From IMG/VR virus record IMGVR_UViG_647533160_000003: DNA of 64,000 nucleotides; one strand, 5' to 3'. Under the pieces are notes generated by a model. It saw nothing but the letters and a program-made list of their open reading frames with translations. It did no database searches and was not told the DNA's origin. Each line of letters starts with the position of its first letter. The first letter of the stretch is position 1. This document shows, piece after piece, positions 7,267 to 56,276 of the stretch. This DNA comes from a virus. Taxonomy: Duplodnaviria > Heunggongvirae > Uroviricota > Caudoviricetes. The position numbers were made by a program, and so were the translations under genes.

Positions 7267-7279
7267 AAACAATTTGTTT
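7267..7279. promoter_or_regulatory. 13-bp palindrome AAACAA-N-TTGTTT (site 1)
   Basis: aaacaatttgttt. Confidence 0.6.
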
Positions 7280-7317
7280 TCTACCTTTTGTTGATTGAGA
7301 TAATAAGCCACATAAGA

Positions 7318-7330
7318 AAACAAATTGTTT
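7318..7330. promoter_or_regulatory. 13-bp palindrome AAACAA-N-TTGTTT (site 2), 14 nt upstream of ATG 7344, preceded by GATAAT
   Basis: aaacaaattgttt. Confidence 0.6.
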
Positions 7331-7343
7331 CGGAGTGGTTGAA

Positions 7344-7643
7344 ATGTTGAACATTACCCAAGCCTACCAGGTGGCATTGATCAGTTCATCTCATACATCA
7401 GAGGAAGATGCTCGCCGATTCATGATCGCAAGCAATGAACTGGATTGGGTTTCACAAATTGAGTACGGTTGCATTGTCCACGCCGGGTTACAGGACGATG
7501 ACTGGAAAGATAACTTGCGTCGATATGGTATATCCGAGGGCGCGATTTCGAACATTCAGAAGGTACTTGATGTAGGCTTCGACTCTGTACATTTCGATTG
7601 TGGCGCACCGGTCGTTGAAGGGCTTGAGTGCTGGCAATGGTAA
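7344..7643 (+). CDS. Hypothetical early protein
   Basis: ORF (track 7335, GTG) with GGAG RBS 8 nt before ATG 7344; preceded by conserved palindrome at 7318-7330. Confidence 0.55.
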   Translation: MLNITQAYQVALISSSHTSEEDARRFMIASNELDWVSQIEYGCIVHAGLQDDDWKDNLRRYGISEGAISNIQKVLDVGFDSVHFDCGAPVVEGLECWQW

Positions 7644-7679
7644 TCCGGCAATCGCTTCATACTAGATAACGGAGAATTT

Positions 7680-7865
7680 ATGCTTAAAGAAGACTCATAT
7701 CTACTAAAGGCGCTTGAAATGCGTGGCGTTGAACCTACAGTGAAAAACGCTCACGATATCTACCTTCAGTTTTCGACAGAGCTGAAACAGCTCATAAATA
7801 AATATGGAGTGAACGACTCCAGCGTCAAAGCCATGATAGATGATGAATTAGACCATCTCATCTAA
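7680..7865 (+). CDS. Hypothetical small protein (61 aa)
   Basis: ORF with RBS-like 'acggagaatttatg'; operon position after previous gene. Confidence 0.45.
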   Translation: MLKEDSYLLKALEMRGVEPTVKNAHDIYLQFSTELKQLINKYGVNDSSVKAMIDDELDHLI

Positions 7866-7959
7866 TCAAACCGTTGATAATGGCGGTCACAATTTGATTC
7901 TTTTCTATAAGAATCCGTTGATCGCCACTACTTCCCTTCCATACCCGCAATCACATCCT

Positions 7960-8760
7960 TAAATATCAATAATTTATAGTTGTTTATACAATCAAGAAAA
8001 CAACTGAATAACAGATCAACGAAACGTCAACGCTTTCACCTGATTTGGTCTAAAAAGTTGACGTTTTCACACATCACTTCTTATACCCGTAATCCCACGC
8101 AGCAGATAGCGCCACAGCGTCCAAATTTCACCACAGACGACTCAACACTACCAACAAAAACACACGCTCAAAATCGCTCCCGTTGCGTTACACAACCATA
8201 TAAACAACTTATTTCCAGGCATAACAAAACAACTAAATAACACACATGCCATTCCCAAAAACAACCAACCTCTTTATGGCAGGCTACCGAAAAGACCCAC
8301 CTCTTCTTCCCAGGCTACCGGACAACCAACCTAACTTTCACAGGCAATCCGAAAACATTCATACGCGCGATACTCACGACACGCCATTCCCCAAACAGCG
8401 AAGAAACACAGAACCACTGAACCCCCAACGAAGCCTGTAACCGCAAGGATTCTCTCAATCCCAAAAGACACGAAACAGAACAATCACGGGAAACGCCATT
8501 ACCCAATACACGAATAACTACAAAAGCCTTTCACGCACTCCAGACAAACACAATAACGAAAGGAATCGCCCACCTGCCATTACTCCATATACGGAGAAGA
8601 ACAATCACCAAAACGACGAGAACACCCCACAGAAGAACCACCGCAAAACGAACGAAACCATTTACACCGACAGAGAGAACAACACACCCAATTCACCAAC
8701 AGGAATAGTCGCCGTATAGAACGCTCTGGAAGGAGTGAGCATTAACGCCTATAGAGAGGT
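7960..8760 (+). other. Strand-asymmetric C+A-rich noncoding region with degenerate ~30-bp repeats
   Basis: Plus strand almost devoid of G and T over ~800 bp; repeated caggctaccg units near 8281-8342; ORFs here have non-protein-like composition. Confidence 0.6.
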
Positions 8761-53317: not shown

Positions 53318-54075
53318 TTGAGGTGCTGCTTGGCACCTCTTTCTATAGGTTCCCTAATGCTCTACAAATATATTGGAAGTGAAGATTCGCAAAAAGTGTT
53401 ACGTAACCTCAAACGGTTTGTAGAGGACGGCACTATCTCTGCTAGCGCACCTTCTTCATTCAACGACCCATCAGAGTTCAAAGTTTCGATAACGATGGGA
53501 GGTACAGAAGTGGAGCGCCGGAAACACTTTGAAGACAATGGATGTAAGGATTTTTCCTTTGAAGACTGGGATGCTGTAGCTCCTGAAGCTGCAAAATCGT
53601 TGGCTGTGGATTTGCGGAAAGAATCATTAGGGGCTTTTGGTGTGGTGTGCTTGTCACCAAACGAAGATAACATCTTGATGTGGTCACATTACTCAGTGTC
53701 GCATAAAGGTTTCTGCATAGGCTTTGATGATGATTTTGTTACCTCTATTGAGGGGTATCACAGCTTTGATAATGTGAAATATATACCTTCTGTTCCCGTG
53801 TTCGATGAAGTTACAGATGAGTTTAAGGTACTTTTTGATAAGCTCTTTTTCTACAAGCACGAATGCTGGAAATATGAGGAAGAACAAAGGGTTATTACTA
53901 AAAAATAGGCGCTCAGGCATTTGATAAGAAATATATTAGAGAGATCATTCTTGGGTATAACGTTTCTCCTGAAGTAGAAGAATATGCCCGGACACAGCTA
54001 GACACGAGCATCGAGGTTTACAAAATGAGTACACCTGATGATGGTTATCTTCTTGTCAAAGAAAAGCTGAAGTAG
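53318..54075 (+). pseudogene. Hypothetical protein gene split by frameshift at A6 homopolymer (53901-53906); motif pattern reminiscent of DUF2971-type proteins
   Basis: ORF 53318-53908 ends just after run 'actaaaaaatag'; a second frame (open 53902-54075) continues a plausible C-terminus; adding one A restores a single ORF; motifs LYKY, FNDPSEF, MWSHYS. Confidence 0.5.
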
Positions 54076-54141
54076 CTCCAGACTTTCCTCAAATGATTAT
54101 GTTGGGCGCTTTTCTTATTGAACTGGTTAGTGAGGCTAATA

Positions 54142-55314
54142 ATGGATTTGTTCTCAACCAAAATAGCAAAAAACAAGCTGCACGAATCTTTTAAACAGAT
54201 TTATCAAGATAATACATATGCTCCAGTAAGAGAAGTGATACAGTCGTGGGGGCGTGGGTTACTGGAGCGTAGCGGTGAGCAGACTAAATTCGTTAAAGAG
54301 TTTCAGACAACCTTCAATTCCGCCTTATGGGAATTGTATCTGAACGAAATGTTTATTCGTCTCGATTATTCTGTCGACTACACAAAAGACAGTCCCGATT
54401 TCTGTGTTACTACACCGTCAGGCTACCAGTTTAACGTCGAAGCTGTGATATCAGATCGGCCACATAATCCACCTGCAGGTGCTCTTTTTAGCGAATCAAA
54501 ATTCAAACATCAATCAACGCTAAAATTAATCGGAAAAATCAAAGACAAACATGATCTTTTTACAGGAGTTAATGGCAAAAAATTCCCGTACTCTACGATG
54601 TCTCATGTAGTTAATAAGCCGTTTGTTCTGGCGCTTGCACCCTTTGACTCCGATTTATCATTGTCTCAAAATAACACAATCATCAATCGAGTGTTGTTTG
54701 GCATTGAGGAACCTACCACCAGAAATTTGGTGACTGGCAGCCAAACTAAAGTTACCTCAATCAAAAAGAATGAAGACGTTGAAATTCCATTAGGTATATT
54801 TACTAACGACTCATATAAAGAAATAAGTGCGGTTATTTTCTCCACCACCGGCACTTTTGGAAAAGCCGTGGTTCAAAGCGGTATCGGTAGATATGTAAGG
54901 TCAACACGATATCGAGCCATTGATGTGAATGATTTCATCGCCAATGAAGGGATGAAAAACGAGGGAAAGCACACACAAAGGATAGGACCTGATCATTTCA
55001 TCACTACATATCGGCATTTTTTAAATAACGAAGTCACTGGTGCGGATATTGTAGTTTGCCATTCCACTGCTCATGAAGAGACGCACTTTGACGGCCTTCA
55101 TATTTACTACAATCCTTTTGCGACAGTGCCACTGGACAGAAATATTTTCTTCCCCCCAGAGATAACTCATAATTTTTACGATATGGAAAAAGAACAGTCT
55201 GTTCAGAATCATCCTGATGGAGCGCTGGTATCTAGACAGGTTTTTGAACCAACTAGAGCACATTTTAGGTATATCATGAAACATTGGTTTCCAGGCTTTC
55301 TAAAAGATGTTTAA
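54142..55314 (+). CDS. Hypothetical protein (391 aa)
   Basis: ATG 54142 with GAGG RBS (track ORF begins at 54118 TTG); followed by palindromic element copy 2. Confidence 0.5.
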   Translation: MDLFSTKIAKNKLHESFKQIYQDNTYAPVREVIQSWGRGLLERSGEQTKFVKEFQTTFNSALWELYLNEMFIRLDYSVDYTKDSPDFCVTTPSGYQFNVEAVISDRPHNPPAGALFSESKFKHQSTLKLIGKIKDKHDLFTGVNGKKFPYSTMSHVVNKPFVLALAPFDSDLSLSQNNTIINRVLFGIEEPTTRNLVTGSQTKVTSIKKNEDVEIPLGIFTNDSYKEISAVIFSTTGTFGKAVVQSGIGRYVRSTRYRAIDVNDFIANEGMKNEGKHTQRIGPDHFITTYRHFLNNEVTGADIVVCHSTAHEETHFDGLHIYYNPFATVPLDRNIFFPPEITHNFYDMEKEQSVQNHPDGALVSRQVFEPTRAHFRYIMKHWFPGFLKDV

Positions 55315-55338
55315 GCATCCTGCTGGTTGAATTTGGAA

Positions 55339-55393
55339 CCTGCTTCTGTATATAAATACTAAGTTACTTATTATTATTTATACGGAAGCAGGT
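55339..55393. repeat. Long palindromic hairpin element, copy 2 (with T-run, terminator-like)
   Basis: Near-identical to 21401-21457; followed by CTTTTTC. Confidence 0.8.
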
Positions 55394-55511
55394 CTTTTTC
55401 TATGCCAACTTCCCAGACACATTCCCTTCCGTTTCCACTTCCAAAAACTGCCACCAGTCGCTATCATCCGCTCATTGCAATAAGTAAGTAACTACCTATC
55501 AGGTGAGCCAC

Positions 55512-56252
55512 ATGAGCCAAATCTTTTTTGATACCATTGACAACGACCAGTACGACTTCATGACAGAGTGGAATACCGCTGTTATGGACAAGTGGGTCGC
55601 TGAAAACATTGGTTTGTCGCGCTGCAAAGACGAGGCTGAACTCTTCGAGACGAAGTGGTTTGATTACCGCGATATGCATCCTCTCATGGCCACCTGTCTG
55701 TTTACGGAGGCGTACAAACGTCAGTACTCAAATATCATGCTGACGCACGGTCGCGAACACTTTGAAACAGCTCCGTTCACCACCGGGTTAAAACGCCTGC
55801 CTTATCAGGAGTTGTCGACTGCCAATAAAACGTCGCTATGGAAAGCACGCCAGTTTGCTGATCGCTATTGCTGTTCATACGACTACTTTATCTCCACGGT
55901 TCTTTCCGCAGCTGCACGGCGTCTGTGGGACAAGTTGCCGCGCCCACAGCATTTATGGCAGCCAGAACTGATTGAGATATTCGAAGAGAAATTATCCAGA
56001 CGCGCAACAACCCGTCTGGATGACTCTCTGGTTAGCTTTAAGCATATGGGAGACATGCAGTTCAACCCGATTCAGGAAAGCTATTTTGAGTGGATTCTGG
56101 AGCGTTTGCGCATCATCCCCCGCAGCAAGCGCATACGCGCAATTTTCTCTGCTATCTGGCTAATGGAAATCGTTCCAGAGCGCCTTATTTCCGCCCACTT
56201 TCCAGAAGAACTGGAAGAAGCACGGCGGTTTATTGATCCCCTATCTAATTAA
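55512..56252 (+). CDS. Hypothetical protein
   Basis: ORF (track start 55503 GTG; ATG 55512); preceded by GATAAGTAAG-type motif. Confidence 0.5.
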   Translation: MSQIFFDTIDNDQYDFMTEWNTAVMDKWVAENIGLSRCKDEAELFETKWFDYRDMHPLMATCLFTEAYKRQYSNIMLTHGREHFETAPFTTGLKRLPYQELSTANKTSLWKARQFADRYCCSYDYFISTVLSAAARRLWDKLPRPQHLWQPELIEIFEEKLSRRATTRLDDSLVSFKHMGDMQFNPIQESYFEWILERLRIIPRSKRIRAIFSAIWLMEIVPERLISAHFPEELEEARRFIDPLSN

Positions 56253-56263
56253 CTAATACTAGA

Positions 56264-56276
56264 AAACAATTTGTTT
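56264..56276. promoter_or_regulatory. 13-bp palindrome family (site 10) upstream of DnaB-like helicase gene
   Basis: aaacaatttgttt. Confidence 0.6.

What the first reader, a model, noticed from the sequence alone, without database searches (positions are those of the whole stretch)
7267..56276. Conserved 13-bp palindrome AAACAA-N-TTGTTT at ten sites immediately upstream of early, packaging, partition and replication genes
Sites at 7267, 7318, 9388, 9862, 10815, 11300, 21496, 21521, 52237 and 56264 all lie 12-40 nt upstream of start codons and are often adjacent to a GATAAT -10-like hexamer and a conserved ACACCAACAAG extension. This indicates a single regulator (repressor or activator) or phage-specific promoter class controlling a dispersed regulon.
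Basis: seen in the sequence. Interest (0 to 1): 0.6.

Follow-up and report, generated by a model that had tools for sequence, protein, structure and literature searches.

The report
Dispersed operator palindrome of SSU5-like phage-plasmids
A 13-base palindrome sits at a fixed position beside about twenty promoters of a 100-kb phage-plasmid and its relatives, marking a previously undescribed gene-silencing circuit whose binding protein is not yet identified.

Summary
AAACAANTTGTTT occurs 6 times exactly (0.03 expected) and 12 times with at most one mismatch. All ten reported sites exist. The window is an SSU5-like phage-plasmid, closest to Escherichia phage Cyrano/pLF82. Relatives carry 17-21 copies at the same operon starts: terS, parA, dnaB, cobT, nrdB and small early genes. 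Overall, 77 of 88 sites are intergenic against about 11 expected.

One class of site starts 13-14 nt after an extended -10 box (TGnGATAAT), at about +8 to +20. A second class overlaps the -35 region, 51 bp upstream, beyond the preceding terminator. Half-sites show no compensatory changes, and the leaders do not fold unusually well. I read this as a DNA operator of a dispersed repression regulon, not a special promoter class.

The binder is unresolved. The motif's presence tracks an FljA-family protein at 13882-14403, which models as two Hfq-like domains and is expressed in lysogens. That protein is hypervariable, and its fold suggests RNA binding. ParA's small partner is a rival candidate. This is a new member of a known kind, of moderate interest.

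The parts
7267..7279 (+). Upstream (class B) palindrome AAACAATTTGTTT. Its right half runs into TTTTCT at the -35 region, and it lies 51 bp upstream of site 7318.
7299..7304 (+). -10 box GATAAT preceded by TGA (extended -10), 13 nt upstream of palindrome 7318.
7318..7330 (+). Downstream (class A) palindrome AAACAAATTGTTT, preceded by AGA, ahead of the gene at 7344-7643 (DUF5983 C-terminal domain protein).
8202..8214 (+). One-mismatch site AAACAACTTATTT in a conserved region poor in ORFs. The orthologous sites are SSU5 90740 and pJN2-26 25869.
9388..9400 (+). Class A site AAACATGTTGTTT. GATAAT lies at 9369-9374. The downstream ORF is split in this window.
9862..9874 (+). Class A site AAACAAGTTGTTT. 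TGC-TATTAT lies at 9842-9847. It precedes the gene at 9886-10197 (103 aa).
10764..10776 (+). Class B site TAACAATTTGTTT. It lies 15 nt beyond the hairpin 10732-10748 and its T-run, and 51 bp upstream of site 10815.
10815..10827 (+). Class A site AAACAACATGTTT. TGC-GATAAT lies at 10796-10801. It precedes the gene at 10841-11128.
11300..11312 (+). Class A site AAACAATTTGTTA. GATAAT lies at 11280-11285. It precedes the gene at 11333-11815 (160 aa).
21496..21508 (+). Site AAACAAATTGGTT, the first of a pair 25 bp apart upstream of terS.
21521..21533 (+). Perfect site AAACAAGTTGTTT upstream of terS (21574-22206) and the structural operon.
52237..52249 (+). Perfect site upstream of parA (52285-52953). 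It lies within the only block that is invariant in five genomes.
56264..56276 (+). Perfect site upstream of the DnaB-like helicase gene (56296-57636) and the primase gene.
13882..14403 (-). FljA-family protein (PF03614), modelled as two tandem Hfq/Sm-like domains. It is the leading candidate for the cognate factor, based on co-occurrence with the motif across relatives.
52953..53312 (+). The 119-aa partner of ParA, possibly a ribbon-helix-helix protein. It is a rival candidate binder.
21111..21377 (+). It is disfavoured as the binder.
63445..63660 (+). A 71-aa protein with weak winged-helix matches. Like the FljA-like protein, it is absent from the motif-less Moellerella relative, so it remains a minor candidate.

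Best explanation
The palindrome is the DNA operator of a repression regulon specific to SSU5-like phage-plasmids. A symmetric, or internally pseudo-symmetric, element-encoded protein binds it at about 20 promoters per genome. At most sites the operator covers roughly +8 to +20, just downstream of an extended -10 sigma-70 promoter. At the stronger early promoters a second copy overlaps the -35 region 51 bp upstream, so the polymerase site is bracketed. Occupancy would keep the early, replication, packaging/structural and (partly) partition operons quiet while the element lives as a plasmid. The conserved placement and statistics of the motif are shown. Repression, and action at the DNA level, are inferred. 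The binder is not established. My first choice is the FljA-family protein at 13882-14403, at about 0.35-0.4.
For: Enrichment and intergenic bias are strong. There are 17-21 copies at orthologous operon starts in Cyrano, SSU5, pJN2-26 and the diverged pC714_2. In the parA upstream alignment the palindrome lies in the only invariant block. The gap to the -10 hexamer is fixed at 13-14 nt, while the distance to the ATG varies. TGn precedes 14 of 20 of these -10 boxes. Class B copies lie beyond the preceding terminator's T-run and overlap the -35 region, so they cannot act in the downstream mRNA. Paired sites show recurrent spacings of 51 bp (5 pairs) and 25 bp (4 pairs). Both half-sites vary without compensation, and the leaders do not fold better than shuffled sequence in 6 of 7 cases. 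In pLF82/Cyrano lysogens the motif-preceded terS, cobT, dnaB and early genes are at or close to background level (about twice it for dnaB), while parA is moderately expressed (PMC9928086). For the binder, among TerL-anchored loci with 10 kb of upstream sequence, 54 have both the FljA-like gene and a motif upstream of terS, 6 have neither, 1 has the gene without a site within one mismatch, and none has a site without the gene. Only 9 of 68 core ORFs are missing from the motif-less Moellerella plasmid, and the FljA-like gene is the only one of those nine with a regulator-family match (the 71-aa protein, which fell outside that ORF set, is missing too). It is expressed in lysogens at log2 4.2-8.1.
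Against: No binding or transcription-start data exist. The consensus promoter scan does not call these promoters, because the -35 is poor or the spacer is 15 nt. The terS, parA and dnaB sites lack a clear -10 box. The FljA-like protein models as Hfq-like, a fold better known for RNA binding. It is hypervariable: 74, 69, 66 and 39% identity, and 26% in locus L383, while the motif is invariant. Its own promoter carries no site. The co-occurrence evidence rests on essentially one clade contrast. The left half AGAAAACAA survives alone in several leaders, including in Moellerella, so part of the conservation may be intrinsic to the promoter or leader.
Confidence: 0.5

Rival explanations
1. The element acts in RNA. 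The class A sequence (ACCAACAAGAAAACAANUUGUUU) is a 5' leader operator bound by the FljA-family tandem Hfq-like protein. Binding blocks translation or destabilises about 20 mRNAs, as Salmonella FljA does on fliC mRNA.
For: The protein is a full-length PF03614 member. Its model has two helix-plus-five-strand domains, and the top 50 PDB matches are all Hfq. FljA is described as preventing fliC mRNA translation (PMC2652032). Class A sites lie in the predicted transcribed leader, with a conserved A-rich 5' flank. The Salmonella-type fliC leader carries CAAGTTGT 9 nt upstream of its Shine-Dalgarno sequence. The co-occurrence evidence is the same as for the best explanation.
Against: Class B copies lie outside the downstream transcript and beyond the upstream terminators. 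Position is fixed relative to the -10 box, not the ribosome-binding site. The two halves are perfectly symmetric without covariation, and the hairpin is weak (z-scores -0.85 to +0.75 in 6 of 7 leaders). The fliC leader match is not significant with the full matrix (P = 0.11), and the E. coli-type leader does not match (P = 0.44).
Confidence: 0.2
2. The binder is ParA's 119-aa partner (52953-53312), a ParG/omega-like centromere-binding protein. The palindromes would then be dispersed centromere-and-operator sites, as with omega of pSM19035 or the scattered SopB sites of N15.
For: ParA is small (222 aa) with no N-terminal DNA-binding domain, and the partner gene overlaps its stop codon. The motif is the only conserved element upstream of parA, and no repeat array is present there. 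The segments SRTMS.EDE and FTRSDVIRAAI are invariant down to 48% identity. There is a weak match to the aCcr1 family, which I recall from my own knowledge, not from a tool result, to be ribbon-helix-helix (E = 2e-4, below the curated cut-off). The parA operon is the one motif-linked operon that is clearly expressed in lysogens, as autoregulation would predict.
Against: The fold is unconfirmed: there is no Pfam hit, the AlphaFold model has pLDDT 63, and Foldseek and hhalign found nothing. The Moellerella plasmid keeps this protein with the same predicted strand residues but has no palindromes. Instead it has two direct repeats AAATAACAAGGC before parA. pMT1 lacks the protein yet keeps six sites, including those at terS.
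Confidence: 0.15
3. The binder is the 88-aa winged-helix-like protein (21111-21377) encoded just upstream of the terS sites.
For: It is one of the best conserved small proteins of the element (100, 89, 84 and 78% identity). It has weak matches to LexA N-terminal, Sta1 and Lrs14 winged-helix models. It lies next to two sites.
Against: It is present at 56-62% identity in six loci and in the Moellerella plasmid, all of which lack the palindrome. Its putative recognition helix there, LPYKTTKQSxQFSIRALIxKGLV, differs at only two positions. Its expression in lysogens is low.
Confidence: 0.05
4. No dedicated regulator exists. The sequence is bound by a conserved host factor, or is an intrinsic promoter or leader element, for example an initial transcribed region or translation enhancer.
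For: The motif is invariant across hosts and across very diverged element proteins. The half AGAAAACAA occurs alone in leaders and persists in Moellerella.
Against: A full dyad, also used in the opposite position over the -35 region, is not expected of a leader element. The palindrome is lost as a whole in one clade while the promoters remain. No host regulator with this consensus is known to me, and I could not scan a host genome.
Confidence: 0.1

Closest known systems
Phage-plasmid P1 C1 repressor with its many operators scattered over the genome
   Same: Both are phage-plasmids whose lytic operons each carry a copy of one operator at the promoter, so a single protein can silence a roughly 100-kb genome.
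   Different: As I recall, P1 operators are asymmetric 17-bp sites, whereas this is a 13-bp dyad. I did not search for a C1 homologue, and the binder here is unknown.
KorB/KorA global regulons of IncP plasmid RK2 (13-bp palindromic OB sites)
   Same: Both use a 13-bp perfect palindrome repeated at a dozen or more promoters of one replicon, some copies next to the -35 region, and both link partition and gene control.
   Different: The sequence is different. The two ParB_N proteins of this element are also present in relatives without the motif.
Omega (pSM19035) and ParG (TP228), type Ib centromere-binding repressors, and the dispersed SopB sites of phage-plasmid N15
   Same: Both have a small ParA followed by a small partner gene. 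Both have a site upstream of parA, with copies elsewhere at promoters of other functions.
   Different: Known systems use arrays of short repeats, whereas here there are single 13-bp dyads. The ribbon-helix-helix fold is not confirmed. The protein persists where the motif is absent.
Salmonella FljA, the repressor of phase-1 flagellin acting on the fliC leader
   Same: The same protein family is present at full length. The target lies between the promoter and the ribosome-binding site.
   Different: There is no flagellin or hin gene here, and there are about 20 targets instead of one. The fliC leader resembles the motif only in an 8-base core. Some sites lie outside transcripts.

Membership tests
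FljA / Flag1_repress (PF03614), for the protein at 13882-14403 | Full-length match to the family model | tested here: met
   E = 2.2e-68, 229.8 bits, covering positions 1-170 of 170 in the model. phrog_1444 matches at 4.8e-89.
FljA / Flag1_repress (PF03614) | Encoded with a phase-2 flagellin gene and an invertase (fljBA-hin context) | tested here: not met
   The neighbours are phage-plasmid genes: UvsW, ParB-like and early genes. 832 plasmid homologues are almost all in elements of about 105-115 kb.
FljA / Flag1_repress (PF03614) | The target sequence resembles the fliC leader target | tested here: inconclusive
   CAAGTTGT is shared, but the matrix score of the Salmonella-type leader gives P = 0.11 and the E. 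coli-type leader gives P = 0.44.
Dispersed repressor regulon of a phage-plasmid (P1 C1 type) | One operator sequence repeated at many promoters across the genome | tested here: met
   There are 17-21 sites per genome, and 77 of 88 are intergenic.
Dispersed repressor regulon of a phage-plasmid (P1 C1 type) | A cognate repressor has been identified and shown to bind | not testable with these tools
   Only co-occurrence and expression evidence is available.
KorB-type ParB global regulator | The presence of the ParB-family protein tracks the operator | tested here: not met
   Both ParB_N proteins are present at 44-71% identity in relatives that lack the motif.
Type Ib partition system with a ribbon-helix-helix centromere-binding autorepressor | A small ParA without a DNA-binding domain, followed by a small partner gene | tested here: met
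   ParA is 222 aa and matches NF041546 at E = 2.3e-33. The partner gene start overlaps the parA stop codon.
Type Ib partition system with a ribbon-helix-helix centromere-binding autorepressor | The partner protein has a ribbon-helix-helix fold | tested here: inconclusive
   There is a weak aCcr1 match (E = 2e-4, below the cut-off). The AlphaFold model has pLDDT 63, with helices at residues 48-60 and 70-84. Pfam, PDB, Foldseek and hhalign gave no support.
Type Ib partition system with a ribbon-helix-helix centromere-binding autorepressor | An array of repeats upstream of parA | tested here: not met
   Only a single 13-bp dyad is present, with no repeat family in 51900-54200.
Sigma-70 promoter, extended -10 class | TGn immediately upstream of a -10 hexamer | tested here: met
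   14 of 20 class A sites with a -10-like hexamer at a 13-14 nt gap have TGn.
Sigma-70 promoter, canonical | A -35 and a -10 hexamer separated by a 16-18 nt spacer | tested here: not met
   The consensus scan finds no promoter at any motif site.
Structured RNA element (known family or conserved hairpin) | An Rfam match, covariation or unusual stability | tested here: not met
   There are no Rfam matches in the window. Folding z-scores are unremarkable in 6 of 7 leaders. Variant sites show no compensatory changes.

The most novel reading that the evidence does not exclude
The FljA family, known only as the flagellar phase-variation repressor, is in fact mainly a phage-plasmid global regulator. 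It would be built from two Hfq-like domains and would silence about 20 operons through the AAACAANTTGTTT element. Salmonella fljA would then be a domesticated copy that kept a single target, the fliC leader.
Probability: 0.3. Interest if true: 0.7.

Novelty: new member of a known kind. Interest (0 to 1): 0.5.

Why it matters
SSU5-like phage-plasmids, which include pHCM2 of S. Typhi, pMT1 of Y. pestis and pLF82/Cyrano, are common in clinical Enterobacteriaceae; roughly 800 PLSDB plasmids carry their marker genes. I found no description of how they are kept silent as plasmids. A single conserved operator at nearly every operon start gives a direct experimental handle on that switch. It also provides a simple sequence signature for annotating their promoters. 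If the FljA-like protein is the partner, it would connect a classic Salmonella regulator to a phage origin.

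Tried and rejected
- **Literature.** No paper in the library contains any of the four 13-mers. Searches on SSU5 regulation found no motif work. The key FljA papers, and a 2026 preprint that mentions SSU5, could not be read.
- **CYRAN_45, the cI-like HTH repressor, as binder.** Rejected. It is absent from SSU5, variable (56% and 48% identity), and flanked by its own GGTAAG-type dyad.
- **Autoregulation of the FljA-like gene.** No site lies upstream of it in four genomes.
- **The fliC leader as an independent test.** The result is not significant.
- **Motif scan of viral contigs.** Hits were mostly chance singletons outside SSU5-like contigs, so it was uninformative.
- **Homologue searches for the 88-aa and 119-aa proteins.** These reached only the same family, so no distant covariation could be examined.
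- **Fold of the 119-aa protein.** The model has low confidence and the fold searches are meaningless.
- **Terminator reading of class B sites.** Rejected, because the palindrome lies beyond the T-run.
- **Unused resources.** The metagenome scan and the representative-protein search were not used.

Full report
**What the window is.** The early region is 96% identical to Escherichia phage Cyrano, which is plasmid pLF82 of E. coli LF82. It matches Klebsiella and Salmonella SSU5-like phage-plasmids more distantly. Gene order follows Cyrano. From left to right it runs: early small genes, a minus-strand cluster, a ParB-like operon, the terminase and structural genes, lysis genes, parA, the helicase and primase genes, and the ligase gene.

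**The observation.**
- AAACAANTTGTTT occurs six times exactly against 0.03 expected.
- It occurs twelve times with at most one mismatch, and twenty times with at most two against 6.2 expected.
Four carry one mismatch, and two one-mismatch sites (8202 and 10764) were missed.
- Ten of the twelve sites are intergenic in a window that is 89% coding.

**Conservation in relatives.**
- Complete relatives carry similar numbers of sites within one mismatch: Cyrano 18, SSU5 20 and Klebsiella pJN2-26 17. The much more diverged K. pneumoniae pC714_2 has 21.
- The sites precede the same operons in each genome: terS, parA, dnaB, cobT, nrdB, a DUF4942 methylase, a TerB/TciA-like gene and the cluster of small early genes.
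- Over five genomes, 77 of 88 sites are intergenic against about 11 expected.
- In an alignment of the parA upstream regions, the palindrome and the 25 nt before it form the only invariant block.
- A de novo search for over-represented dyads ranks this motif first in SSU5 and pC714_2.

**Anatomy.** There are two site contexts.
- *Class A* reads (TGn)GATAAT, then 13-14 nt ending in ..CCAAcAAGA, then the palindrome, then the ribosome-binding site.
  - The gap to the -10 hexamer is 13 or 14 nt in 29 of 45 class A sites with any -10-like hexamer.
  - Among the 20 sites with a good hexamer at that gap, 14 have TGn, the mark of extended -10 promoters.
  - The distance to the start codon varies from 4 to about 150 nt.
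  - With a start about 7 nt after the -10 box, the dyad would cover roughly +8 to +20. That start position is inferred.
- *Class B* reads AAACAANTTGTTTTCTgCCTT. It overlaps the -35 region of a class A promoter.
  - It lies 8-15 nt beyond the T-run of the preceding terminator hairpin.
  - Paired sites are 51 bp apart in five cases and 25 bp apart in four.
- The extended half AGAAAACAA faces the promoter core in both classes.
- The simple consensus scan does not call these promoters, because the -35 is weak or the spacer is 15 nt.
- The terS, parA and dnaB sites have no clear -10 box.

**DNA or RNA?**
- Variant sites change either half without compensation.
- The leaders fold no better than shuffled sequence in six of seven cases, and Rfam finds nothing in the window.
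- Class B copies are outside the regulated transcript.
- Position is tied to the promoter, not to the ribosome-binding site.

These points favour a double-stranded DNA operator for a two-fold symmetric binder. One caveat is that the left half, AGAAAACAA, survives alone in some leaders. It also persists in a Moellerella relative that has no palindromes, so that half is partly an ancestral leader feature.

**Expression.** Published RNA-seq of LF82 lysogens gives the following picture (supplement of PMC9928086).
- terS, cobT and the early gene CYRAN_101 sit at about background level, and the helicase at about twice it.
- The parA operon is moderately expressed (log2 5-10).
- The FljA-like gene CYRAN_114 is expressed at log2 4.2-8.1.
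- The 88-aa protein CYRAN_123 is lower, at log2 2.9-6.6.
- Ciprofloxacin induces Cyrano 39-fold.

**Who binds?**

*FljA-family protein (13882-14403, minus strand).*
- It is a full-length PF03614 member.
- Its model (pLDDT 78) has two helix-plus-five-strand domains, and the fifty best PDB matches are all Hfq.
- Relatives with TerL at 81-82% identity lack both this gene and the palindrome. This holds for six viral contigs and the Moellerella plasmid pW18-2-b.
- Those same relatives keep the 88-aa protein, both ParB-like proteins, UvsW and terS. pW18-2-b, the only one of them seen whole, also keeps ParA and its partner.
- Among TerL-anchored loci with a full 10-kb upstream flank, 54 have both the gene and a motif upstream of terS. 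Six have neither. One (L383) has the gene without a site within one mismatch. None has a site without the gene.
- L383 carries a 26%-identical copy of the gene and the variant AAACAGGATGTTT at terS.
- Only 9 of 68 core ORFs are missing from the Moellerella plasmid, and this is the only one of those nine with a regulator-family match; the 71-aa protein, which fell outside that ORF set, is missing too.
- Against it: the contrast is essentially one clade, so the counts are not independent. The protein is hypervariable while the motif is invariant. Its fold points to RNA. Its own promoter has no site.
- The Salmonella-type fliC leader shares only CAAGTTGT with the motif, and this is not significant with the full matrix (P = 0.11).

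*ParA's 119-aa partner (52953-53312).*
- It has invariant SRTMS.EDE and FTRSDVIRAAI segments and a weak aCcr1-family match.
- It sits in an operon whose promoter carries the site, and it is well expressed in lysogens.
- However, its fold is unconfirmed.
- It is present in the Moellerella plasmid, where parA is instead preceded by two direct repeats of AAATAACAAGGC.
- pMT1 has lost it but keeps six sites.

*The 88-aa winged-helix-like protein (21111-21377).* It is highly conserved. It persists in motif-less relatives with a near-identical putative recognition helix.

*CYRAN_45, the cI-like repressor.* It lies outside the window, is absent from SSU5, and has its own dyad.

**Verdict.** The motif is a genuine, family-wide cis-regulatory element. 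It is most likely a repressor operator bracketing extended -10 promoters. The closest analogues are P1's dispersed C1 operators, the KorB sites of RK2, and omega or N15-type partition-linked control. I found no prior description. The binder and the level of action need experiments. I rate this a new member of a known kind, with moderate interest. The more novel possibility is that the FljA family is at root a phage-plasmid regulator.

Noticed in passing
window 5793-6703: There is a run of 911 N (masked or unknown bases) inside the long ORF 3883-7182, which corresponds to Cyrano's MetRS-like gene. ORF calls across this stretch are unreliable.
   Followed up: no
window 18172-18185, 24968-24981, 30463-30476, 43874-43887; also Cyrano, SSU5, pJN2-26, pC714_2: A second over-represented dyad family, TAAGTAnnTACTTA / (A/G)GTAA-N4-TTAC(T/C), has about 15-25 copies per relative genome. 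Copies lie before the ParB-like operon and before portal, tail and tail-fibre genes. One copy, GGTAAGTGCTTACC, lies beside the cI-like gene of Cyrano. This may be a second regulon, either late promoters or the cI-like repressor's sites.
   Followed up: partly
window 7990-8800: This is an ORF-poor stretch of about 800 nt with skewed composition (A 40%, C 30%, G 14%, T 16%). It begins with AGAAAACAAC at 7995, contains site 8202, and ends at a terminator-like hairpin at 8829-8856. The site is conserved in non-coding DNA of SSU5 and pJN2-26. It may be a non-coding RNA, but Rfam gives no match.
   Followed up: partly
window 13882-14403 (-): The FljA family (PF03614) models as two tandem Sm/Hfq-like domains, and all of the top 50 PDB fold matches are Hfq. 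I do not know of a published fold assignment for FljA.
   Followed up: yes
window 12600-15600: This is a mosaic region. The FljA-like allele is 98, 84, 74 and 67% identical among E. coli phage-plasmids that are otherwise 95-100% identical. ORFs 14400-15014 and 15015-15503 have no counterpart in Cyrano, SSU5, pJN2-26 or pC714_2.
   Followed up: partly
window 9413-9732: The gene after site 9388 is split here (9413-9496, then 9511-9732), whereas Cyrano annotates one 116-aa CDS. This is probably a frameshift. Cyrano's annotated start codon lies inside the palindrome, so its true start is probably the next ATG.
   Followed up: no
window 52953-53312: The homologue in Cyrano (CYRAN_29) is annotated as a RelE/ParE toxin and listed as a moron. 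It has no toxin-family match, and it sits where the partner gene of a small ParA is expected.
   Followed up: partly
L302-L304 (Moellerella pW18-2-b), upstream of parA at record position 15347: Two direct repeats of AAATAACAAGGC, 20 bp apart and unique in that plasmid, lie immediately before parA. They are a plausible local partition operator containing the same ACAAG core.
   Followed up: partly
L385-L386 (Yersinia pestis pMT1): pMT1 has lost the small ParA, its partner and the DnaB-like helicase. It keeps the FljA-like gene (68% identity) and six palindromes, including both at terS.
   Followed up: partly
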